NCBI GenBank assembly: GCA_947628365.1
Contig: CANQZN010000001.1
Coordinates: 1-62,632 of the forward strand
Origin: an uncultured Bacilli bacterium
Lineage (GTDB): Bacteria; Bacillota_I; Bacilli_A; RF39; UBA660
DNA: 62,632 nucleotides
Reading direction: 5' to 3'
Position numbers and translations under genes: made by a program. Positions 9,035 through 39,915 of the stretch are shown piece after piece. The notes below the pieces were generated by a model. The model was not told where the DNA came from, did not search any database, and was given only the letters and a program-made list of their open reading frames with translations. The first letter of the stretch is position 1; each line of letters opens with the position of its first letter.

Positions 9035-10105
9035 TTATTTATCAATTTTTATTGTATATATTAGTTCGTTAGTATTATCATCTTTTGTTACATTAACAAC
9101 ATAATTATTACTTGTTAAATCATTTTGTAATTTTTCAACTAAGTTAATTGCAACACTCATATCTTTTACTTCTTGAGTCGGTGTTACTTCTGGTTGGGGT
9201 GCAGGTTCAGTTGGTGGTTGAGGAGTTGAAATATCAAAATCAAGCATTTCTATTTCTTCTACTGGTTCACTATTAAAGTTTGGTTCTGTATCAACAACAT
9301 TCATATTAGCGACCTCATCCTCCAAATAATTGAAGAATTTATTTGGAATTGGTTTAGCTTCTTCAGTATTAGCAGGAATAGTATCTCTTCTTTTTGGAGG
9401 TTCAAATGGATTTATAATATCAACAGCCCTTTCTCTTATTTCATTTATATTAGGTGTATTTTCAATTATTGGTGCATCCCCTGTAACTGTTTCTTCTTTT
9501 TTGGTACCTTTTAATCTTTCGTCTAAATCTTTAACAGTTAATCGATCATTTATAATAATATTAAGCCATTTTTCTTGGTCTTCAAAGTTTTCTAATTGTA
9601 ATAAACTTCTTGCGTGACGTTCAGAAATTTTACCTTCAATTAAAGCATTTTGAACTACTTCTGATAAAGATAATAATCTTAATTTATTAGAAATAGCAGA
9701 TTGGCTTAAACCCATTCTTTTGGCTAATTCTTCTTGAGTTAAATAACCTTTATCTAATAATGCTTTATATGATTTAGCTTCTTCTATTGCAGATAAATCT
9801 CTTCTTTGAACATTTTCTACAATAGCTACTTCCGCACTTTTTTTATCATCCATTTCAGTGATTATTGCAGGTACAGTTGTAAGACCAGCCAATTTAGAAG
9901 CTTTGTATCTTCGCTCACCAGCAATGATTTCATACTTCTCACCAAGGCGTCTTAAAACTAGGGGTTGAATAATCCCATGTTCTTTTATTGAAGATGCTAA
10001 TTCTTTAAGAGCGTTTTCATCAAAATTTAATCGTGGTTGAAAACGATTGGGTATTATATCTTCAATTGGCACATTTAAAACTTGCGACTCTGTATTCACA
10101 AACAT
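9035..10105 (-). CDS. ParB/Noc-family CTP-dependent DNA-binding protein with a Noc-like recognition helix and an atypical Pro-rich C-terminal extension
   Basis: ParB N-terminal motifs IIPNRFQPR and GERRYKA. The HTH region LSQSAISNKLRLLSL...KISERHARSL resembles B. subtilis Noc. It sits next to rsmG, as noc does in Bacillus. Confidence 0.85.
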   Translation of the reverse strand: MFVNTESQVLNVPIEDIIPNRFQPRLNFDENALKELASSIKEHGIIQPLVLRRLGEKYEIIAGERRYKASKLAGLTTVPAIITEMDDKKSAEVAIVENVQRRDLSAIEEAKSYKALLDKGYLTQEELAKRMGLSQSAISNKLRLLSLSEVVQNALIEGKISERHARSLLQLENFEDQEKWLNIIINDRLTVKDLDERLKGTKKEETVTGDAPIIENTPNINEIRERAVDIINPFEPPKRRDTIPANTEEAKPIPNKFFNYLEDEVANMNVVDTEPNFNSEPVEEIEMLDFDISTPQPPTEPAPQPEVTPTQEVKDMSVAINLVEKLQNDLTSNNYVVNVTKDDNTNELIYTIKIDK

Positions 10106-10146: not shown

Positions 10147-10854
10147 CTATTTTTTCAATGGCTTTTTTATGATTTTATCATAAGTTCTTAAGTTATTTAT
10201 TTGGGTTTCTTTCTTCTTTTTTATAACTATAATATTTCTAATTCCTTCATTATCATGAAGATTAAATGTAATAATATTTGTTATTTCTCCATTTAAAATA
10301 GCAATAGTTTCTCTTGAGTCTTCTAGATTATCATCCATTATACCTTTAAGGGCAATGAAATAGCCTCCTACTTTAACAAGTGGTAGAGAGATTTCTGTTA
10401 ATACACGCATATTAGCAACTGCTCTTGATGTAACTATATCAAATTTATTAAGATTATTTTTGACATAATTTTCTACTCTATCATTAATTATTTCAACATT
10501 TATATTAAGTTTTTTAGATAATTCTTGTAAAAATTTAATTTTCTTATTATTGGAGTCTAAAAGAGTAACATTTATTTTAGGGAAAACTATTTTTAAAACC
10601 ATACCAGGAAAACCAGCACCAGTACCAATATCAAGTAAATTATTTATATTATTTAAATCTATGGCTTTAACAATAGTTAAAGAGTCATAAAAATGTTTCA
10701 AATAAATATCTTCATCAGTAACAATTCTTGTTAAATTAGTATGTTTATTATATTCTTGTAAAAATTCTTTATAAGTATTTAACATATTTAATTGTTCAGT
10801 TGTTAAAGTAATTCCTAACTTAGAAACACTAGTAATAAATTCATTTTGTGTCAT
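10147..10854 (-). CDS. rsmG: 16S rRNA (guanine527-N7)-methyltransferase
   Basis: SAM motif LDIGTGAGFPG. Conserved mnmG-rsmG gene order. Confidence 0.9.
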   Translation of the reverse strand: MTQNEFITSVSKLGITLTTEQLNMLNTYKEFLQEYNKHTNLTRIVTDEDIYLKHFYDSLTIVKAIDLNNINNLLDIGTGAGFPGMVLKIVFPKINVTLLDSNNKKIKFLQELSKKLNINVEIINDRVENYVKNNLNKFDIVTSRAVANMRVLTEISLPLVKVGGYFIALKGIMDDNLEDSRETIAILNGEITNIITFNLHDNEGIRNIIVIKKKKETQINNLRTYDKIIKKPLKK

Positions 10855-16374: not shown

Positions 16375-18105
16375 ATGAATATTAAAAAACGAGTATTTTC
16401 AATTCTTATTAGTTTGTCAATTATGATTAATTTAATGACACCATATAATAAGGATAAGAAAAATGATAATGAGTGTGAAATAGCAAGTGAAGTAGTTTTA
16501 GAAGAAGATAAAGTTTTAGCATCTTCTTTTAACTATAATATAAATGAGGTACGTGATTACTTTAAAAATCAAGAATATTTAAGTACTGATAATATAGATA
16601 AAGATAAAATACAACAAATATATAATTATGAAAAAAAAGATTGTCCCTTTATATTTAATGGTAATGTATCCTCTTTAATTAATAAAATAAAACAAAATTC
16701 TTTAACTTATGCTCAAAGTAACCCACAATATAATTATTTATTTTCTGATTCAATGATGCAAGTATTTCCAAGTGATGACTATACAGAATCTTTACAAAAG
16801 ATATATGAGCAATACAAAGATGAACTTTTAAAGGATGGGAAATATGATTATGAATTACAAGGACAATTAATTTTTAATATAGCCCTTGAATATATCATAT
16901 ATAATTTAGTTTTAAATAGTACCAATGACTTAAATGAAGATTTATGTAAAATACAAAATTTAGCCATAGTAGAGGGTAGTTGTAACAAGGAAGATGAGGT
17001 AGTACCTACATTTACCTTAGGAATATATAATTCAGATACAAATGTGATAGTAATTGATTATGAATATAATAAAATAGCAACATTTTTAAGTAATTTTTCT
17101 TTAAAGCCAGCATCTTTTGAATTATTTAAAGCTATGACTGATAAAGTTATAGCAACCCTTAGTCATGAACTAAATCACGCAAGACAAGAAATGTGTGAGC
17201 ATCGGAAAATAGAGCAAGATCATACCTTATTTAATTATATAGTTAGGGTAAATGATAAATCTTATTTATATAAACCAATATATTTTGAAACATCTGCCGA
17301 AAGTGATTTATATAATTATGAAATATTAGTTCAAAATGAAGATGATAATCATTTTAATCACTCTTATGTTTATGAAAGAGAAGATGAATCTTTATTATTT
17401 TTATTAACGATTTTTAATAATAAACCAATAGATGACTATTATGATGCTATATTTGATTTAGATATTAAGAAATTCTATGATTTCTTTGATTGCCATAATA
17501 TAACTGATTATGAAGAAATATATAGAATTTTACAAACATTTAATAATATTTATAGAGAAAATAGAGAGATAGAAAAATATAATAATCAAGATTATTTACA
17601 TTTTAAATTAGAAATTTTTACAAAAACTTTAGATAATTTTATTAAATATATTGAACTTAACCCTAATTTTACTTATGAAGAACAAATATTTTTATATGGA
17701 ATTATTAGAGAAGTAATCATTGATAATGCTTATATGAATAACTTAGAAAAATTACAAAGAGAAAACGTAAGTATAGCTAGTTTAGATGAGGATTTTTGGG
17801 ATAATTTTAAATTGTATGAATACGATAATAACTTTATGGAAGAAATAGATAAGTTAAATCAAAAATTTATTGAATACTTAAGTTATAAACATAATAAATC
17901 AACTTTCAGTGTTCAATTAGATTTAAATAAAAGTGTAGAAGATATAACTAATTTAGATACCCATTTAAGTGTATTAGAAGAAAGATTTTCAAAATTAAAA
18001 GCTATTATCTTTACTACATACATAAATAATAACTATAATAGGGTCATAAATTATTATAAATTAGAAAATAGAGAAGATAACTTAACTAGAAAACTTGAAA
18101 ATTAA
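16375..18105 (+). CDS. Hypothetical secreted or membrane-anchored protein with one HExxH motif
   Basis: N-terminal hydrophobic signal (VFSILISLSIMINLM), LSHELNHARQE, and SD AAGAGGGA. No family recognised. Confidence 0.55.
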   Translation: MNIKKRVFSILISLSIMINLMTPYNKDKKNDNECEIASEVVLEEDKVLASSFNYNINEVRDYFKNQEYLSTDNIDKDKIQQIYNYEKKDCPFIFNGNVSSLINKIKQNSLTYAQSNPQYNYLFSDSMMQVFPSDDYTESLQKIYEQYKDELLKDGKYDYELQGQLIFNIALEYIIYNLVLNSTNDLNEDLCKIQNLAIVEGSCNKEDEVVPTFTLGIYNSDTNVIVIDYEYNKIATFLSNFSLKPASFELFKAMTDKVIATLSHELNHARQEMCEHRKIEQDHTLFNYIVRVNDKSYLYKPIYFETSAESDLYNYEILVQNEDDNHFNHSYVYEREDESLLFLLTIFNNKPIDDYYDAIFDLDIKKFYDFFDCHNITDYEEIYRILQTFNNIYRENREIEKYNNQDYLHFKLEIFTKTLDNFIKYIELNPNFTYEEQIFLYGIIREVIIDNAYMNNLEKLQRENVSIASLDEDFWDNFKLYEYDNNFMEEIDKLNQKFIEYLSYKHNKSTFSVQLDLNKSVEDITNLDTHLSVLEERFSKLKAIIFTTYINNNYNRVINYYKLENREDNLTRKLEN

Positions 18106-18429: not shown

Positions 18430-19815
18430 TTGCGGGGTGAGGTATTGAAAAAGCAAGATTTTTTTAAGCAATTTCTATCAGAGATAGCGGATTCTGTTAG
18501 TCCTGGGACTTATTCTGTATGGTTTAATGATTTAGAATTAATCAGTATGGATGATAAAGAAATCGTTATTAAAGTACCTCTACAAGCACATAAACAAATA
18601 CTTAGAACTAACTACATGAAGTTAATAGATGATATTACTTTTGCAATACTAGGTAGTAATTATGAATATAAATTCTATACGGAAGATGATTTAAACGAAT
18701 TAAAACTTAATATCGAAGAAGAAAAAAAGACAACTAAAGTTCAAAATGAAGATAATAATTTAGTAGAGTGGAACACTAATTTAAATCCAAATTTAAATTT
18801 TGATAATTATGTTGTTGGTGAGTCTAATCGTTTAGCGTTTATTTCAGCCATGAATGTTGCTCAATCACCAGGTACTATTAGAAATCCACTTTTTATCTAT
18901 GGAAGAAGTGGTATTGGTAAAACTCATTTAATGCACGCAATTGGTAATTATATTACTCAAAATTCAAATAAAAAAGTTTTATATACAACAAGTAATGATT
19001 TTAAAGATGAATATGCAGGAATATCTAAGTTAGAAAAAGGGAAAGAAACCTTAGAATATGCCAATAATTTTAAAAATAAGTATAGAAATGTCGATGTCTT
19101 AATTGTTGATGATATTCAGTTTCTAGTTGGAGCAGACTTAACTCAACAAGAATTCTTCTATACATTTGAGGCATTACATCAACAAAATAAACAAATAATT
19201 ATTTCAAGTGATCGGAGCCCAGATGATCTTAAAAAGATAGAAGAGAGACTTAGAAGTAGATTCAAATGGGGACTTCCAGTTGATATTTATCCACCAGATT
19301 TTGAACTTAGGTGTGAAATAATTAAACAAAAATTACAGAAAACTAGTATTAAAGATAAAGTAAATAGAGATATCATAGAATATATAGCTAATGCTTGTCC
19401 AAATGATGTTAGACATATTGAAGGGACAATTAATAGACTTCTAGCTTATACAGCCATGATGGCTCCGAAAGTTATAACATTAGATTTTGTTATTGAAGGT
19501 ATTAAAGATTATGTTAATACCAATATTTATCAAGAAAATACGATTTCCCATATTCAAAAAGTAGTTGCAGATTATTTTAAGATAACTGTGGAAGATTTAA
19601 AAAGTAAAAAGAGAAGTAATAATATAGCAAGGCCTAGACATATTGCTATGTATCTGTGTAGAACAGAAACTGAAGAGAATCTAGCAAAGATAGGCTTTGA
19701 GTTTGGTGGTAAAGATCACTCAACAGTAATTGCTAGTTGTGAAAAAATTAAAGAAGAATTAAAAGATAATGCCACTCTTAATAATTTGTTAAAAGAAATA
19801 AAATCAAAGTTATAA
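18430..19815 (+). CDS. dnaA: Chromosomal replication initiator protein DnaA
   Basis: AAA+ motifs GRSGIGKTHL and LIVDDIQF, C-terminal DNA-binding domain (RPRHIAMYL...DHSTV). TTG start after GGGAGA. Confidence 0.95.
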   Translation: MRGEVLKKQDFFKQFLSEIADSVSPGTYSVWFNDLELISMDDKEIVIKVPLQAHKQILRTNYMKLIDDITFAILGSNYEYKFYTEDDLNELKLNIEEEKKTTKVQNEDNNLVEWNTNLNPNLNFDNYVVGESNRLAFISAMNVAQSPGTIRNPLFIYGRSGIGKTHLMHAIGNYITQNSNKKVLYTTSNDFKDEYAGISKLEKGKETLEYANNFKNKYRNVDVLIVDDIQFLVGADLTQQEFFYTFEALHQQNKQIIISSDRSPDDLKKIEERLRSRFKWGLPVDIYPPDFELRCEIIKQKLQKTSIKDKVNRDIIEYIANACPNDVRHIEGTINRLLAYTAMMAPKVITLDFVIEGIKDYVNTNIYQENTISHIQKVVADYFKITVEDLKSKKRSNNIARPRHIAMYLCRTETEENLAKIGFEFGGKDHSTVIASCEKIKEELKDNATLNNLLKEIKSKL

Positions 19816-21054: not shown

Positions 21055-21070
21055 TATTTCCCGGGAAATA
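21055..21070. promoter_or_regulatory. Perfect Noc-binding-site (NBS) 16-mer TATTTCCCGGGAAATA
   Basis: Exact palindrome 4 nt after the dnaN stop. Identical to the three sites in the 27.2-27.7 kb island. Confidence 0.7.
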
Positions 21071-21131: not shown

Positions 21132-21572
21132 ATGACAAACTTCATAATCAATAATGAAACTGTCGCAGTTTTAAAGAAAAATAAGAAAATTATAAAATAT
21201 AATGTTGATAACTATGAAGTTATTAACAAAAATTTAAATTCTTTTTTAGATTTTAATTGTCTTTATTATGGTAGTAGTTTAAAGGGAAGAATAAAATATG
21301 CGAAACTTATCCTTAATATTAGTTATAAATGCCCAATCTTGATATCAGAGAAAGAAAATTTAATATTAATTCCTTTAAATTCATTAAAAAATGAGGAAAC
21401 AATACTAATCATGCTTAATAAAATAAAAGATTATCAAGAAAATGGTGATATGTTATCGATTACTTGTGTTAATAATCAAGTATTTTCAGTTAAATTATCT
21501 AAATATAGTTTTGAAAAATCAATAATTAATGCCCTTAAATTAAATAATCAAATAAAATGGCTAAACTATTAA
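21132..21572 (+). CDS. ComK-family protein (competence transcription factor-like)
   Basis: By-eye alignment to remembered B. subtilis ComK. NCLYYGSSLKGR aligns with SCRFFGSSYAGR, YKCPILIS with HKPPIMVD, LILIPLNS with IFLFPTLS, and KYSFEKS with YNSFENQ. Confidence 0.6.
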   Translation: MTNFIINNETVAVLKKNKKIIKYNVDNYEVINKNLNSFLDFNCLYYGSSLKGRIKYAKLILNISYKCPILISEKENLILIPLNSLKNEETILIMLNKIKDYQENGDMLSITCVNNQVFSVKLSKYSFEKSIINALKLNNQIKWLNY

Positions 21573-24697: not shown

Positions 24698-27208
24698 ATG
24701 GATCATAGTATTGATAGATTAGAAGAAAATAATATTGTTAAAGAAATAAAAGACTCATTTATTGATTATTCATTAAGTGTTATTATTTCAAGAGCCCTTC
24801 CAGATTTAAGAGATGGATTAAAGCCAGTTCATAGAAGAATTCTTTGGTCAATGTATGAATCTGGCTATACACCAGATAAACCCCATAAAAAATCAGCTCG
24901 TATAGTTGGTGATGTTATGGGTAAATATCATCCACATGGTGATTCCAGTATTTATGAAGCAATGGTTAGGATGGCTCAAGACTTTAGTTATCGTAATACA
25001 TTAGTTGATGGTCATGGAAACTTCGGTAATATAGCTGGAGCAGGTGCTGCAGCAATGCGTTACACAGAATCAAGACTATCAAAAATTTCTCTAGAATTAT
25101 TAAGAGATATTAACAAAGATACAATTAATTTTGTGCCAAACTTTGATGAATCTGAAAAAGAACCCGAGATTTTACCTTCAAGATTTCCAAATATCTTAGT
25201 AAATGGTACAATGGGTATTGCCGTTGGTATGGCAACAAATATTCCGCCACATAATTTAGGAGAAGTAATTGATGGATGTGTTGCATACATTGATAACCCA
25301 GATATTGATACTGATGGCTTAATGCAATACATTAAAGGTCCAGATTTTCCTACTGGTGGTATAATTTTAGGCAACAGTGGTATTAAAAAAGCTTATGAAA
25401 CAGGCCGTGGAACAATAACTATTAGAAGTAAAGCAACTATTGAAGAAAAAGATGGAAAACACTACATTATTGTTGATGAAGTTCCTTATGGTGTAAATGT
25501 TTCTGACTTAAAATCAAAAGTTGCTGAACTTGTTCATAATAAGATTATTGATGGTATTGCTGATTATCATACAGATTTAAAAAATGGCGTTAAGATAACA
25601 ATTACTTTAAAAAAGGATGCCAATCCACAAGTAGTTCTTAACAATTTATATAAACATACTCAATTTCAAATGAGTTATGGTATCATTTTCTTAATGATTG
25701 ATAATCAAGTACCTCGTACTTTAGGCCTAAAAGATATTATTTCTAAATATTTAAATTTCCAAGAAGAAGTTATTATTAGAAGAACAAAATTTGAATTAGA
25801 TAAGGCTGAAAAAAGAGTTCATATATTAGAAGGTTATAAGATTGCGCTAGATAACTTAGATGATTTTATTAAAATTATTAGAGAATCTGAGACAGATATA
25901 ATTGCTAAAGAGCAATTAATGAGCAAATATGGCTTAACTGATGTTCAAGCTGATGCTATTCTTGAATTAAAACTTCGCCGTTTAACAGGTTTAGAAAGAG
26001 CTAAAATTGAAGAAGAATTAAAAGAATTATTGGCAAGAATTCAAGAATTAAGAGGAATACTTGCATCTAGAGAAAAAATTCTTGAAATAATTAAAAATGA
26101 ATTGTTAGAAATTAAAGAAAAATACGCTGATGAACGTCGTACAAAGATTGATATGACCGCTATTGAATATATTGAAGACGAATCATTAATTCCAGAAGAG
26201 GATGTTATGATTATGTTAACCAATAAAGGTTATATTAAGAGAACAACTAACGAAACATTTAAGGTTCAAAACCGCGGTGGAGTCGGGGTTAAAGGACTTA
26301 CAACTAACGATGAAGACTATGTTGAACATTTAATTAATCTTTCAACTCATGACTATATAATGTTCTTTACTAATAAAGGTAAAGTTTATAGATTAAAAGG
26401 TTATGAAGTACCAGAATTTAGTAGACATTCCAAAGGTATACCAGTTGTTAACTTATTGCAAATTGAAAAAGATGAAAAAATTAATTCAGTTATAAAAGTT
26501 AATAAAGATGATGATTATAAATATTTATTCTTTGCCACTAAGAAAGGTATAGTTAAGAAGACTAACATATCTGAATTTGAAAACATCCGTACAACTGGTA
26601 AATTATGTATAAATCTTAATGATGGTGATGAATTATTAGATGTTAAGAAGACTACTGGTGAAGACATTATTCTTTTAGGTAGTAGCAATGGTCGTATGGT
26701 TAAGTTTAAAGAATCAGAGATCAGAGCAATGGGTAGAACTGCAACTGGTGTAAGAGGAATTAACTTAGATGGTGCTAGTTGTATATGTTTTGAAGTCGTT
26801 AAAGAAGAATCAACAATAATTTTAGTAACAGAAAAAGGCTACGGCAAAAGAACAAATGTTTGTGAATTTAGACAAACAAAACGTGGTAGTAAAGGTGTTT
26901 TAGCCCTAAATGTTACTGAAAAAAATGGTAATTTAGTTGCTGTTAAAGTGGCAGAAGTTGATAAAGATATTGTTATAATGACTAATGCTGGTGTTACTAT
27001 TAAATTACCAGTCGACCAAGTTTCATTATTAGGCAGAGTTACCCAAGGTTTAAGACTTATATCATTAAGGGACAATCAATTTGTTGCTACAATATCAATT
27101 GTTGATAAAACAAATGAAGAAGAAAAAGAAACGATTGAAGCAGAAAATAAAGAAGAAGTTAACAATGAATCTTCAAATGAATCTTCTGAAAATGATAAAA
27201 TAGAGTAA
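24698..27208 (+). CDS. gyrA: DNA gyrase subunit A
   Basis: [16 protein letters not shown] (catalytic Tyr), C-terminal beta-pinwheel repeats, acidic tail. Confidence 0.97.
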
Positions 27209-27228: not shown

Positions 27229-27258
27229 GTTACATGAAACATAGATATAGGTCAGAAA

Positions 27259-27274
27259 TATTTCCCGGGAAATA
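27259..27274. promoter_or_regulatory. NBS-1: perfect TATTTCCCGGGAAATA inside a 34-bp perfect palindrome (27250-27283)
   Basis: Read directly: GGTCAGAAATATTTCCC|GGGAAATATTTCTGACC. Confidence 0.75.
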
Positions 27275-27435
27275 TTTCTGACCGGTAATGTATATTTTAA
27301 AAGTTCTATTTTTAACTATTTATTGCTATTATGAATAGGAATCTGTTAATTTAAATAATCTCATCGATTATTATTTAAACAAAGCACTTTTTAAACTTTT
27401 TAAAGCCAATATATTATTATTGATTTGTATTTCAA

Positions 27436-27451
27436 TGTTTCACGTGAAACA
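27436..27451. promoter_or_regulatory. parS: parS-1: perfect TGTTTCACGTGAAACA inside a 32-bp perfect palindrome (27428-27459)
   Basis: Read directly: TATTTCAATGTTTCAC|GTGAAACATTGAAATA. Matches the consensus ParB/Spo0J centromere site. Confidence 0.85.
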
Positions 27452-27475
27452 TTGAAATAAGAATAAGATCACAAT

Positions 27476-27491
27476 TATTTCCCGGGAAATA
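27476..27491. promoter_or_regulatory. NBS-2: perfect TATTTCCCGGGAAATA
   Basis: Core of a 22-bp perfect palindrome (27473-27494), 24 bp from parS-1. Confidence 0.75.
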
Positions 27492-27635
27492 ATTTGTAGG
27501 TAAAAAATTATTAAAAATTAATCTTGCAAATCATCGGTCAAAAAGCATTATAAATGATTTGGCCGGTATAAATCATTTAAAAATTAGAAAAATTAACAAT
27601 AATTTCCATGAAAAATATGTTTATATAATTCACAA

Positions 27636-27651
27636 TGTTTCACGTGAAACA
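27636..27651. promoter_or_regulatory. parS: parS-2: perfect TGTTTCACGTGAAACA (24-bp palindrome 27632-27655)
   Basis: Read directly: ACAATGTTTCACGTGAAACATTGT. Confidence 0.85.
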
Positions 27652-27664
27652 TTGTTTAAAAAAA

Positions 27665-27680
27665 TATTTCCCGGGAAATA
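27665..27680. promoter_or_regulatory. NBS-3: perfect TATTTCCCGGGAAATA inside a 30-bp palindrome (27658-27687)
   Basis: Read directly: A7-TATTTCCCGGGAAATA-T7. It lies 13 bp from parS-2. Confidence 0.75.
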
Positions 27681-27819
27681 TTTTTTTAAAGATTAATTTA
27701 ATTATTATTCATTATATGTATATTTTAACATTTATATATTTTTTATATAAATAATTACATGAATGATAATGAAAGTGCTTTTTATAGCCTAATAAGCCGC
27801 ATATAATTATATCTTTCAA

Positions 27820-27835
27820 TGTTTCGTGTGAAAAA
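27820..27835. promoter_or_regulatory. Degenerate parS-like site TGTTTCGTGTGAAAAA
   Basis: Three mismatches to the 16-mer. Its flanks (CTTTCAA...TTGAAAG) resemble those of parS-1. Confidence 0.4.
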
Positions 27836-27998
27836 TTGAAAGAAAAAGGATGCAAAAAATTGTGTAAATAATTAGTGGTGATAATGATAATAACTAAAAA
27901 TGCTTGTAAAACTTTTAAAAAGTATGAAATTTATATGATTTCAAATTATTTTTCTATAGAATATATTACTATAATATATCTTTAATGTATAATCACAA

Positions 27999-28014
27999 TG
28001 TTTCACGTGAAACA
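27999..28014. promoter_or_regulatory. parS: parS-3: perfect TGTTTCACGTGAAACA
   Basis: Read directly: CACAATGTTTCACGTGAAACATTA. Confidence 0.85.
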
Positions 28015-28029
28015 TTATAAATAATTAAA

Positions 28030-28058: not shown

Positions 28059-28064
28059 TTTTAT

Positions 28065-28135
28065 GCACAACAAATATATCGTAAACTGGTCAGAGTTGGA
28101 AGACAGCAGCCACATCGGTCCCTATTTGTGTGTGC
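28065..28135 (+). ncRNA. ffs: Small (4.5S-type) signal recognition particle RNA
   Basis: CTGGTCAGAGTTGGAAGACAGCAGCCACATCGG matches the conserved SRP domain IV (GGUCAG..GGAA tetraloop..AGCAGCCA). The ends GCACAACAAATA and TATTTGTGTGTGC pair, followed by T6. It occupies the same neighbourhood as scr (tadA-scr-dnaX) in B. subtilis. Confidence 0.75.
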
Positions 28136-28156
28136 TTTTTTATTGGAGAATTAACT

Positions 28157-28576
28157 ATGGATGAAAAAATATTAAATGAACTTTATAAAGAAACTTTAAA
28201 AGCATATAAGAGAAATGAAATACCTGTTGGTGCTATTATAATTAAAGAAGACAAGGTTATAGCAAAGGCTCATAATAATCGCCAAAATAACCACAATATT
28301 TTAGGACATGCAGAAATACAAGCAATAATAAAAGCTGAAAAGAAAATTAAAGATTGGCGATTAAATGGGTATACTATGCTTGTAAATTTAGAGCCTTGTG
28401 AATTGTGTCAAAGAGTTATAAAAGAATCTAGAATAGACAAAATATGTTATATATTAAAATCAAAAAATAATGCTAAAATAATTGCTAACTTAGAGCAAAC
28501 AAACGTATGCGAAGATTGGCAAAAGAAATTTCAACAATTAATGGATAATTTTTTTAGTAATTTACGTAAAAAATAG
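28157..28576 (+). CDS. tadA: tRNA-specific adenosine(34) deaminase
   Basis: Zinc motifs HAEIQAI and PCELC. Start moved to the ATG after TGGAGAA, because the tracked N-terminal extension overlaps the SRP RNA 3' end and terminator. Confidence 0.85.
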   Translation: MDEKILNELYKETLKAYKRNEIPVGAIIIKEDKVIAKAHNNRQNNHNILGHAEIQAIIKAEKKIKDWRLNGYTMLVNLEPCELCQRVIKESRIDKICYILKSKNNAKIIANLEQTNVCEDWQKKFQQLMDNFFSNLRKK

Positions 28577-39661: not shown

Positions 39662-39744
39662 AATATTTCAACTTGAATTGCTATTTAACTTGTGTTAAAC
39701 TTAACTTAATTAACGAGGAATTTGTTAAAAGGTAATTATGAATT

Positions 39745-39915
39745 ATTTAAAGAGAGTTAGTATTTGGTGTAAGCTAATAATATGAAATAATTAGGTATGG
39801 GCAAAGGAGTTAAATCGCAGAGGTGCGTTAAAATATTAAGTGTATGATTTAATCATAAATAAGGGTGGTACCACGGGTAATACTCGTCCCTACTTTTATT
39901 TATGATTTTTATTTT
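39745..39915 (+). promoter_or_regulatory. T-box riboswitch leader, candidate Met (AUG) specifier
   Basis: AGAGAG/AGTA stem-I elements (39751-39763), ATG followed by A at 39782-39785, and the T-box sequence AATAAGGGTGGTACCACGG (39858-39876). A T-rich tract runs up to the GGAGG of the next ORF. metG is downstream. Confidence 0.75.

What the first reader, a model, noticed from the sequence alone, without database searches (positions are those of the whole stretch)
27229..28029. Dedicated non-coding island after gyrA with alternating perfect parS and perfect Noc-binding-site palindromes
There is no credible ORF between the gyrA terminator and the SRP-RNA promoter. The region does hold seven palindromic sites, in this order:
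- NBS (27259-27274)
- parS (27436-27451)
- NBS (27476-27491)
- parS (27636-27651)
- NBS (27665-27680)
- decayed parS (27820-27835, TGTTTCGTGTGAAAAA)
- parS (27999-28014)

Every intact site is the perfect 16-mer. TGTTTCACGTGAAACA is the consensus ParB/Spo0J centromere site. TATTTCCCGGGAAATA is the consensus Noc-binding site defined in B. subtilis. The two differ only at positions 2 and 7 of each half-site.

Several sites sit inside longer perfect palindromes: 34 bp at 27250-27283, 32 bp at 27428-27459, and 30 bp at 27658-27687. Two parS/NBS pairs are only 24 bp and 13 bp apart edge to edge.

In the model organisms I know, parS sites are scattered and mostly intragenic, and NBS sites are dispersed around the chromosome. 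I am not aware of any description of a purpose-built intergenic array like this one. It interleaves loading sites for the two paralogous CTP-dependent clamps about 8 kb from dnaA.

There are two readings. Two clamps may co-load or compete at one locus, coupling origin segregation and SMC loading with membrane tethering or nucleoid occlusion. Alternatively, one ParB-family protein may read both sites.
Basis: partly seen in the sequence, partly recalled or inferred. Interest (0 to 1): 0.85.

Follow-up and report, generated by a model that had tools for sequence, protein, structure and literature searches.

The report
Paired parS and Noc-site centromere array
The non-coding gap after gyrA is a real array of binding sites for two sister DNA-clamp proteins (ParB and a Noc-like protein), and the same mixed array sits at this spot in well over a hundred uncultured gut Bacilli species, an arrangement I could not find described anywhere.

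Summary
The window holds three perfect parS 16-mers, three perfect NBS 16-mers and one decayed parS in the ORF-free gyrA-ffs spacer. A fourth perfect NBS lies just after dnaN. About 0.02 sites of each type are expected by chance.

This is a lineage trait, not a one-off. A scan of species-representative genomes for a parS-NBS pair 6-36 bp apart hit its 120-locus limit. All 120 loci are uncultured gut Bacilli MAGs, and all lie at gyrA-[array]-tadA-dnaX.

- parS is essentially confined to this zone: 321 sites inside, 1 outside.
- NBS is concentrated there but also scattered.
- No hybrid or chimeric site occurs among 725 sites.
- Close neighbours are a parS next to an NBS far more often than chance.
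- Some genomes carry tandem composite units, for example 83 bp x 13 copies.

The only ParB-family gene seen, next to rsmG, has Noc-type specificity residues (Q-K-S-R). It lacks Noc's N-terminal membrane helix and misses NCBIfam's Noc cut-off. No canonical ParB or ParA was found in the DNA I could reach.

Best reading: a composite centromere that loads ParB (inferred, encoded elsewhere) and a Noc-like clamp side by side. This is a new variant of known systems.

The parts
27259..27274 (.). NBS 1, a perfect 16-mer at the centre of a perfect 34-bp palindrome (27250-27283)
27436..27451 (.). parS 1, a perfect 16-mer at the centre of a perfect 32-bp palindrome (27428-27459)
27476..27491 (.). NBS 2, a perfect 16-mer 24 bp from parS 1
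27636..27651 (.). parS 2, a perfect 16-mer within the 22-bp palindrome CAATGTTTCACGTGAAACATTG
27665..27680 (.). NBS 3, a perfect 16-mer 13 bp from parS 2, at the centre of a perfect 36-bp palindrome (27655-27690)
27820..27835 (.). Decayed parS with 3 mismatches. It keeps the TTTCAATG...ATTGAAA flanks of parS 1, so it is probably a degenerated duplicate.
27999..28014 (.). parS 3, a perfect 16-mer 16 bp upstream of the -35-like hexamer of the putative ffs promoter
21055..21070 (.). NBS 4, a perfect 16-mer in the dnaN/comK-like spacer. An NBS at this position also occurs in relatives L121-L123.
9035..10105 (-). Noc-like ParB-family protein ('NocL', 356 aa) next to rsmG, the predicted reader of the NBS sites. 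It has ParB_N and HTH_ParB domains, the GERR motif, specificity residues Q135/K141/S146/R163 (Caulobacter positions 173/179/184/201), no N-terminal helix, and a disordered linker with conserved motifs.
24698..27208 (+). gyrA, the conserved left boundary of the array in all relatives
28059..28144 (+). Small SRP RNA (ffs), the right boundary of the array in the window. tadA follows at 28130-28576.

Best explanation
The gyrA-ffs/tadA spacer is the chromosome's centromere region, built as a composite array of loading sites for two paralogous CTP-dependent DNA clamps.

- parS sites nucleate a canonical ParB. This is inferred; its gene lies outside the window.
- NBS sites nucleate the Noc-like protein encoded at 9035-10105. 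This is predicted from its specificity residues.
- Sites are placed as parS-NBS neighbours, typically 25-50 bp centre to centre. Both clamps would therefore be loaded into the same few hundred base pairs, about 9-10 kb from oriC, and form one mixed nucleoprotein complex.
- ParB there would do the usual origin work (SMC loading and segregation), from established knowledge of the family.
- The Noc-like clamp would add a second activity to the same complex through its conserved linker motifs. This is inferred and the partner is unknown. A membrane helix of the Bacillus Noc type is absent.

Shown: the sites, their conservation, their confinement to this locus, their pairing, and the Noc-type residues of the local protein.
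Inferred: a separate ParB exists, both proteins bind and load here, and what the Noc-like protein does once loaded.
For: 1. The sites are perfect and far beyond chance.
2. A scan of one genome per species for a parS-NBS pair 6-36 bp apart hit its 120-locus limit. All 120 loci lie at gyrA-[sites]-tadA-dnaX-recR, with GyrA 51-87% identical to the window's.
3. In 13 relatives picked only by GyrA similarity, all have sites right after gyrA and 10 have both types. Five outgroups have none.
4. The gyrA-dnaX zone holds 321 parS and 192 NBS in 142 kb. The 850 kb outside holds 1 parS and 34 NBS.
5. Sites lie in the two spacers, with only 1 of 513 inside tadA. DNA between sites is not conserved.
6. Of 725 sites of the form NTTTCNCGNGAAAN, 405 are pure parS and 312 pure NBS. 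None is a hybrid or a parS-half/NBS-half chimera. This indicates two discrete specificities.
7. Among neighbours 60 bp or less apart in the 12 informative loci not chosen by the parS-NBS pair pattern (window plus GyrA-picked relatives), parS-NBS pairs number 20 against 11.7 +/- 2.1 expected. Same-type pairs number 2 against 10.3 +/- 2.1.
8. Tandem composite units occur, each with one parS-like site and one NBS. L094 has 83 bp x 13.2 copies at 95% identity.
9. NocL has Q/K/S/R at the four specificity positions. Q173 reads A1 and R201 reads C6 when K179 or K184 is present (PMC7383237).
10. All 120 orthologs are QKxR, and so are most of 150 family representatives.
11. NocL's best solved-structure and NCBIfam matches are Noc.
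12. NocL and the array lie on the same contig in relatives. P0060 and L007 share a contig length of 43541, P0020 and L101 share 34520, and P0051 and L144 share 99960.
Against: - No canonical ParB (R173/G201 type) and no ParA/Soj was found in the 62-kb window. None was found within 10 kb of gyrA or of NocL in relatives either. The parS reader is therefore inferred, not seen.
- NocL lacks the N-terminal amphipathic helix needed for Noc function in B. subtilis (PMC4331003). Its downstream activity is unknown.
- The shortage of close same-type neighbours could partly reflect instability of identical short repeats rather than selection for pairing.
- The roughly 11-bp periodicity in parS-NBS distances weakens after strict dereplication.
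- No binding data exist for this lineage.
Confidence: 0.6

Rival explanations
1. One reader. The Noc-like protein is the only ParB-family protein in the genome and binds both palindromes as a natural dual-specificity ParB/Noc. The array is then a high-density loading zone for a single clamp.
For: - Only one ParB-family gene is seen near the origin in the window and in six related loci. There is never a soj-spo0J pair next to it.
- Deep mutational scanning found 82 dual-specificity variants in a ParB scaffold, so dual reading is physically possible (PMC7383237).
Against: - NocL carries Q173 and R201 with K179. That combination prefers A1 and C6, the NBS bases. parS-specific variants always have R173.
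- Promiscuous variants in that study bind hybrid sites, yet none of 725 natural sites is a hybrid or a chimera.
- A single tolerant reader gives no reason for two sharply separated, perfectly conserved classes. It also gives no reason for close neighbours to be of different types.
Confidence: 0.12
2. Two readers, but the NBS sites serve mainly as roadblocks or insulators. Tightly bound Noc-like dimers interleaved with parS would confine or meter sliding ParB clamps. This would keep ParB concentrated and away from gyrA, ffs, tadA and dnaX, rather than adding an activity of NocL's own.
For: - Site-specific DNA-binding proteins can block ParB spreading (PMC7333895).
- The sites sit between essential, highly expressed genes.
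- parS-NBS pairing at 25-50 bp fits a steric relationship.
Against: - NBS are interleaved with parS rather than flanking the parS cluster.
- NBS also occur away from any parS: inside dnaX, after dnaN and elsewhere.
- NocL keeps the CTP-switch motifs (GERR, ENxQR), so it should itself leave its site as a sliding clamp.
- NocL has strongly conserved linker motifs that suggest a partner.
Confidence: 0.15
3. These are not protein-loading sites. The palindromes would be a lineage-specific repeat family (hairpin terminators, a REP- or MITE-like element, or a hotspot of tandem duplication) that merely resembles parS and NBS.
For: - Several sites lie in longer perfect palindromes that could form hairpins.
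- Some relatives carry young tandem repeats.
Against: - Both 16-mers equal the experimentally defined consensus sites exactly.
- Only the cores and 2-4 flanking bases are conserved across genomes whose GyrA is as little as 51% identical.
- parS occurs once in 850 kb outside this locus.
- A protein with matching NBS-type residues is encoded nearby and co-occurs on the same contigs.
- The window's array has no tandem-repeat structure.
Confidence: 0.03

Closest known systems
Noc-NBS nucleoid occlusion system of Bacillus subtilis and Staphylococcus aureus
   Same: - The 16-bp NBS palindrome is identical.
- NBS also occur scattered in origin-proximal DNA (PMC7383237, PMC8429893).
   Different: - The protein lacks the conserved N-terminal amphipathic membrane helix. 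It falls below the NCBIfam Noc cut-off (272.8 against 315 bits).
- It has a long disordered linker with its own conserved motifs (PMC4331003).
- NBS are concentrated in one intergenic array and paired with parS. In the model organisms they are described as dispersed (PMC5540599, PMC7383237).
Origin-proximal parS clusters of chromosomal ParB systems, such as the four parS sites nearest oriC in Pseudomonas aeruginosa and the 20-23 sites in Streptomyces and Listeria
   Same: - There are multiple consensus parS sites within a few hundred bp to kb, close to oriC.
- Copy number varies between species (PMC7333895, PMC4368675).
   Different: - Here the parS sites are interleaved one-for-one with sites for a second, paralogous clamp.
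- The locus (gyrA-tadA-dnaX) is fixed across a deep lineage.
- No parAB operon is nearby.
Staphylococcus aureus arrangement: Noc plus an orphan ParB, no ParA, with Noc restraining replication initiation
   Same: - A Noc-type gene lies next to rsmG and no ParA is in the origin region.
- NBS lie close to dnaA/dnaN. The window has an NBS 4 nt after dnaN (PMC5540599).
   Different: - Co-clustering of NBS with parS is not reported there.
- S. aureus Noc keeps the membrane-associating N-terminus.
- A role in replication control is untested here.
Functional cooperation of Spo0J and Noc in B. subtilis (both needed to prevent Z rings forming over the nucleoid)
   Same: The two paralogues act together on origin-proximal DNA (PMC6852036).
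   Different: In B. subtilis the cooperation is genetic, with separate binding sites. Here the binding sites themselves are physically paired.
RacA-ram origin-anchoring sites of sporulating B. subtilis (from my own knowledge, not tested here)
   Same: - A dedicated set of origin-proximal DNA sites recruits a non-ParB-function protein to the origin region of a spore former.
- The window encodes spo0A, yabG, yabP and spoVT.
   Different: RacA is unrelated to ParB, and ram sites are spread over hundreds of kb. There is no evidence here for pole anchoring.

Membership tests
parS (chromosomal ParB centromere site) | 16-bp palindrome matching TGTTNCACGTGAAACA | tested here: met
   Three perfect copies in the window. 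405 copies in related loci, with consensus aATGTTTCACGTGAAACATt.
parS (chromosomal ParB centromere site) | Origin-proximal location | tested here: met
   The GC-skew minimum is at 16-18 kb and dnaA at 18430. The array is at 27.2-28.0 kb.
parS (chromosomal ParB centromere site) | A cognate ParB with a parS-type recognition helix (R173...G201) in the same genome | not testable with these tools
   None is present in the 62-kb window or in about 1.3 Mb of related origin-region DNA. Whole genomes could not be read.
NBS (Noc-binding site) | Palindrome TATTTCCCGGGAAATA (14-bp core ATTTCCCGGGAAAT) | tested here: met
   Four perfect copies in the window. 312 copies in related loci.
NBS (Noc-binding site) | A cognate protein with Noc-type specificity residues (Q173, K179 and/or K184, R201) | tested here: met
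   The window protein is Q-K-S-R. All 120 orthologs are QKxR (rule from PMC7383237).
NBS (Noc-binding site) | Dispersed over the origin-proximal chromosome and absent near the terminus | tested here: inconclusive
   NBS occur outside the array at about 1 per 25 kb in origin-region DNA. The rest of the chromosome and the terminus are not visible.
Noc (nucleoid occlusion protein, TIGR04285) | ParB N-terminal CTP-binding domain (GERR box) plus ParB-type HTH domain | tested here: met
   PF02195 at 7.8e-35 and PF17762 at 1.3e-31. G63-E64-R65-R66 are invariant. The AlphaFold model shows the ParB fold.
Noc (nucleoid occlusion protein, TIGR04285) | Highly conserved N-terminal amphipathic membrane-targeting helix (about aa 1-15), required for function | tested here: not met
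   - Only 17-24 residues precede NRFQPR, against 40 in B. subtilis Noc.
- The ORF is bounded upstream by stop codons.
- The same holds for 150 family representatives.
- The requirement comes from PMC4331003.
Noc (nucleoid occlusion protein, TIGR04285) | Score at or above the curated NCBIfam cut-off | tested here: not met
   272.8 bits against a cut-off of 315. Only profile positions 1-199 of 255 are matched.
Noc (nucleoid occlusion protein, TIGR04285) | Gene immediately downstream of rsmG (gidB) | tested here: met
   Window 10147-10854 (rsmG), then 9035-10105. The same order holds in L121-L126.
Canonical ParABS partition system | A ParA/Soj ATPase gene with parB near the origin | tested here: not met
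   No ParA-type domain in any window ORF of 100 aa or more. tblastn with Soj found nothing in 144 loci.

The most novel reading that the evidence does not exclude
The lineage has no canonical ParB at all. The Noc-like protein, which lacks both the ParA-stimulating peptide and the Noc membrane helix, would be the only ParB-family clamp and would read both palindromes. Alternatively, parS would be read by a non-ParB protein. Either way this would be the first natural dual-site ParB/Noc system, with a centromere made of two site classes for one clamp.
Probability: 0.1. Interest if true: 0.9.

Novelty: new variant of a known kind. Interest (0 to 1): 0.7.

Why it matters
ParB and Noc are the textbook pair of paralogous CTP-switch clamps. 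They are thought to act on separate sites for separate jobs: centromere function versus nucleoid occlusion. Here a large uncultured gut lineage with genomes of about 1.3 Mb places their loading sites side by side at one fixed locus. It maintains the pairing and sometimes amplifies the pair as a unit. That makes three questions directly testable:
- Do two different sliding clamps interact, block each other or co-condense when loaded tens of base pairs apart?
- What does a Noc-type protein do without its membrane helix?
- How do centromeres evolve in reduced Firmicute genomes that lack ParA near the origin?

The natural pairs, with defined spacings of about 26, 36 and 47 bp, are ready-made substrates for in vitro work.

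Tried and rejected
- Looked for a canonical ParB or Soj. I ran Pfam on all window ORFs of 100 aa or more. I ran tblastn with B. subtilis Spo0J and Soj against 144 related loci. I also read the neighbourhoods of four NocL orthologs. None was found.
- Whole genomes cannot be read with these tools, so absence is not shown.
- Tried to extend the window by looking up its edge proteins. There was no exact match, or only contigs of about 1 kb.
- Ran a representative-library search with NocL residues 1-205, hoping to see a ParB-type paralogue. All 150 listed hits were NocL-type.
- A cluster look-up for organism names returned none.
- Looked up the QKSR variant in the deep-mutational-scanning supplement of PMC7383237. 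The data table is not held as text.
- Searched the supplement of PMC10868615, and the main text of PMC7301438, for spo0J/soj/parB presence in RF39/RFN20. Nothing was found.
- DnaA-box scan: not enriched (28 against 22.5 expected), so it is uninformative for oriC.
- Helical phasing of parS-NBS distances shows peaks near 26, 36 and 47 bp. This is significant against a uniform null, but weaker after dereplication (p about 0.002) and confounded by relatedness. I report it as suggestive only.
- Rejected assembly artefact, chance and coding region as explanations.
- I ran no further search on a generic ParB query. The 120-row listing would be filled by the query's own lineage.
Full report
**1. The observation**

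The spacer between gyrA (24698-27208) and the small SRP RNA (28059-28144) was read directly.
- It holds perfect TGTTTCACGTGAAACA at 27436, 27636 and 27999.
- It holds perfect TATTTCCCGGGAAATA at 27259, 27476 and 27665.
- Each 16-mer is expected 0.02 times in shuffles of the window. No other parS-like site with 2 mismatches or fewer occurs anywhere in the 62.6 kb.
- The decayed parS at 27820 has three mismatches and keeps the flanks of the 27428-27459 copy.
- The long palindromes are real: 34 bp, 32 bp, and 36 bp rather than 30 bp.
- The largest ORF in the spacer is 47 aa.
- No intrinsic terminator was detected after gyrA. A promoter-like site precedes ffs.
- There is no tandem-repeat structure in the window's array.

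**2. Context**

The window is the origin region of a low-GC (about 26%) spore-forming member of the Bacilli. The gene order is:
- rnpA-yidC-jag-mnmE-mnmG-rsmG-[ParB-family gene] on the minus strand;
- dnaA-dnaN-[comK-like]-recF-gyrB-gyrA-[array]-ffs-tadA-dnaX-recR on the plus strand;
- further right, spoVT, yabG, yabP and spo0A.

GC skew changes sign at about 16-18 kb. No ParA/Soj and no second ParB-family gene is present in the window.

**3. The local ParB-family protein is Noc-like but not a full Noc**

The 356-aa product of 9035-10105(-), called NocL here, has ParB_N and HTH_ParB domains.
- Its best solved-structure matches are Noc (7NG0, 187 bits) ahead of Spo0J (6SDK, 173 bits).
- Its best NCBIfam match is the Noc model TIGR04285. 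It scores 272.8 bits, below the 315-bit cut-off, and covers only the first 199 of 255 profile positions.
- Residue-by-residue alignment puts Q, K, S, R at the four positions that set parS versus NBS specificity. ParB has RTAG and Noc has QKKR.
- In the published dissection, Q173 reads adenine 1 and R201 reads cytosine 6, provided K is present at 179 or 184. parS-specific variants always have R173.
- All 120 close orthologs are QK[S/T/A/N/Q/K]R. Most of 150 representatives of the wider family are QKNR, QKSR or QKTR.
- The protein therefore should read NBS, not parS.

NocL has only about 17 residues before the conserved NRFQPR motif, against 40 in B. subtilis Noc. The ORF cannot be extended upstream, and this holds family-wide. 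The N-terminal amphipathic helix is extremely conserved in Noc proteins and required for function (PMC4331003). NocL therefore fails that defining feature.

The AlphaFold model gives a ParB fold (residues 1-205), a disordered linker and a C-terminal dimerisation domain. The linker carries two strongly conserved short motifs, PNKFFNxLEDExxNM and EEIExLDF. These look like partner-binding or relocated targeting motifs. That reading is inference.

**4. The array is a lineage-wide, locus-specific feature**

I scanned one genome for each of 185,579 species for GTTTCACGTGAAAC-N(6-36)-ATTTCCCGGGAAAT.
- All 120 loci come from uncultured gut MAGs. They are labelled Bacilli, Erysipelotrichaceae, Mycoplasma, Tenericutes, Clostridium sp. 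CAG:710, Ca. Onthousia, Ca. (Allo)scybalousia, and in some cases implausibly Muribaculaceae.
- tblastn with the window's proteins shows that every one lies at gyrA-[sites]-tadA-dnaX-recR. GyrA identity to the window ranges from 51 to 87%.
- Each locus has a mixed cluster, up to 10 parS-like plus 13 NBS in strict alternation.

Thirteen in-lineage relatives were chosen only by GyrA similarity from metagenomes.
- All have sites right after gyrA, and 10 have both types in the gyrA-dnaX zone.
- One has only parS, one only NBS, and two have three parS with an NBS 6 kb away.
- Five outgroups (GyrA 47-48%, GC 38-50%) have none.

The likely home of the lineage is among the uncultured orders RF39, RFN20 and ML615J-28 (PMC10868615). 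I could not resolve which.

**5. Anatomy across genomes**

- In 95 loci, the gyrA-to-dnaX zone (142 kb in total) holds 321 parS and 192 NBS. The remaining 850 kb holds 1 parS and 34 NBS.
- So parS is confined to this locus, which marks it as the centromere. NBS is concentrated there but also dispersed at about one per 25 kb.
- Eighteen of the outside NBS lie inside dnaX. There they are always read as (K)IISREII in a variable part of the protein, with the extended NBS flanks intact.
- Within the zone, 411 sites lie in the gyrA-tadA spacer, 101 in the tadA-dnaX spacer and 1 in tadA.
- blastn of the window's spacer against all loci aligns only the site pairs and their immediate flanks.
- Conserved flanks extend the sites to about 18 bp for parS (A-TGTTTCACGTGAAACA-T, 95-96%). 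They extend NBS to about 24 bp (AAAt-TATTTCCCGGGAAATA-aTTT, about 80%).

**6. Two discrete classes, preferentially paired**

Of 725 sites matching NTTTCNCGNGAAAN, 405 are pure parS and 312 pure NBS. Eight carry another base at one position. None is a G..C or A..A hybrid, and none is a parS-half/NBS-half chimera. In the published variant work, promiscuous readers bind hybrid sites. Their complete absence here argues for two strict readers.

Label-permutation tests show that close neighbours (60 bp or less) are of different types far more often than chance.
- The test on loci not chosen by the pair pattern used 12 informative loci (the window plus GyrA-picked relatives). They show 20 parS-NBS close pairs against 11.7 +/- 2.1 expected, and 2 same-type close pairs against 10.3 +/- 2.1.
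- The 113 pattern-selected loci, with the null conditioned on the selection rule, show 223 against 170 +/- 6 and 36 against 89 +/- 6.
- Instability of identical short repeats could contribute to the shortage of same-type pairs.

parS-NBS centre-to-centre distances pile up near 25-27, 36 and 46-49 bp. The periodicity survives dereplication only moderately, so I treat it as suggestive.

Several genomes carry tandem composite units with one site of each type.
- L094, the circular 1.31-Mb MAG OZ006981.1, has 83 bp x 13.2 copies at 95% identity.
- L002 has units of 62-63 bp, L004 and L044 of 72-76 bp, L061 of 78-80 bp, and L036 of 84 bp.
- The pair therefore behaves as the unit that is duplicated.

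**7. What could not be settled**

I found no canonical ParB and no Soj in the window. I also found none within 10 kb of gyrA in 133 relatives or within 10 kb of NocL in six loci. In the relatives, rsmG-NocL is followed by a PBP gene or unrelated genes, never by soj-spo0J.

Whole genomes are not readable with these tools, and sequence searches are swamped by NocL-type proteins. A parS reader encoded elsewhere is therefore an inference. It rests on three points:
- parS is perfectly conserved.
- NocL's residues are of the NBS type.
- No hybrid sites exist.

S. aureus and S. pneumoniae show that a ParB without ParA, and away from noc, is an ordinary arrangement (PMC5540599, PMC7333895).

**8. Mechanism proposed**

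ParB dimers nucleate at parS and NocL dimers at NBS 25-50 bp away. Both have the CTP-switch motifs and should close into sliding clamps. This follows from established knowledge of the family (PMC7053999, PMC8429893) and is inferred for these proteins. Interleaving would create one dense mixed complex about 9-10 kb from oriC. ParB would provide SMC loading and segregation. NocL would bring a second activity through its linker motifs. Division-site or envelope coupling and replication control are candidates by analogy with B. subtilis and S. aureus Noc, but the known membrane helix is missing.

The rivals are a single dual-specificity reader, NBS/NocL acting mainly as roadblocks for ParB, and a non-protein-binding repeat family. 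They are ranked in the rival section.

**9. Comparison and novelty**

Both site types and both protein families are known, and origin-proximal parS clusters are known (PMC7333895, PMC4368675). Genetic cooperation of Spo0J and Noc is also known (PMC6852036). Four things appear new:
- the physical one-to-one pairing of parS with NBS;
- its fixation at one intergenic locus across well over a hundred species;
- its amplification as a composite unit;
- its association with a large family of Noc-type proteins that lack the N-terminal helix.

Four full-text searches found no description of this. The library is incomplete, so this is absence of evidence only.

Verdict: the feature is real and conserved, and it is a new variant of known kinds. 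Interest 0.7.

Noticed in passing
L005, L014, L015, L019, L020, L022, L024, L048, L051, L063, L066, L072, L076, L082, L114, L132 (inside dnaX): A perfect NBS with its extended flanks lies inside the dnaX coding region in many relatives. It is always translated as (K)IISREII in a variable part of DnaX. The window's own dnaX has none.
   Followed up: partly
window 21055-21070; L121:773, L122:774, L123:209: A perfect NBS sits in the short spacer between dnaN and the comK-like gene in the window and in three relatives, close to the presumed oriC. This recalls the minor Noc peaks around dnaA reported in S. aureus.
   Followed up: partly
window 21132-21572: A ComK-family ORF (PF06338, 146 aa) lies between dnaN and recF. 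It is conserved at this position in at least 23 relatives.
   Followed up: partly
window 16375-18105: A 576-aa ORF with no Pfam or NCBIfam match lies between rnpA/rpmH and dnaA, where relatives L121 and L123 have only about 400 bp. It is an insertion into the presumed oriC-flanking spacer.
   Followed up: no
window 9035-10105 (-), protein residues 254-268 and 283-290: Two short motifs in the otherwise disordered linker of the Noc-like protein are nearly invariant: PNKFFNxLEDExxNM (a short predicted helix) and EEIExLDF. The first resembles the RFFGLGEKE stretch of the B. subtilis Noc N-terminus as I recall that sequence. It could be a relocated targeting motif or a partner-binding motif.
   Followed up: partly
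L094:4442-5534 (OZ006981.1, circular 1.31-Mb MAG): There is an 83-bp tandem repeat of 13.2 copies at 95% identity. Each unit carries one parS-like site (AGTTTCACGTGAAACA) and one NBS. Similar composite repeats of 62-84 bp occur in L002, L004, L036, L044 and L061.
   Followed up: yes
proteins P0121-P0270 (representative library): The Noc-like family is large: at least 150 clusters at 50% identity. Lengths range from 227 to 785 aa because of the variable linker. QKNR is the commonest specificity quartet, and a few members have V, T, L, E or A in place of Q173.
   Followed up: partly
L006, L027, L039, L052, L072, L104, L113, L119 and others: Public labels of MAGs from this one lineage are inconsistent (Muribaculaceae, Mycoplasma, Clostridium, Tenericutes, Erysipelotrichaceae). 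The name Candidatus Scybalousia exists both as a Bacteroidales genus and as a synonym of a Bacilli genus (Ca. Alloscybalousia).
   Followed up: partly
window 39707-39894: A T-box leader (RF00230, 95 bits) lies upstream of a dUTPase-like ORF and the methionyl-tRNA synthetase gene.
   Followed up: no
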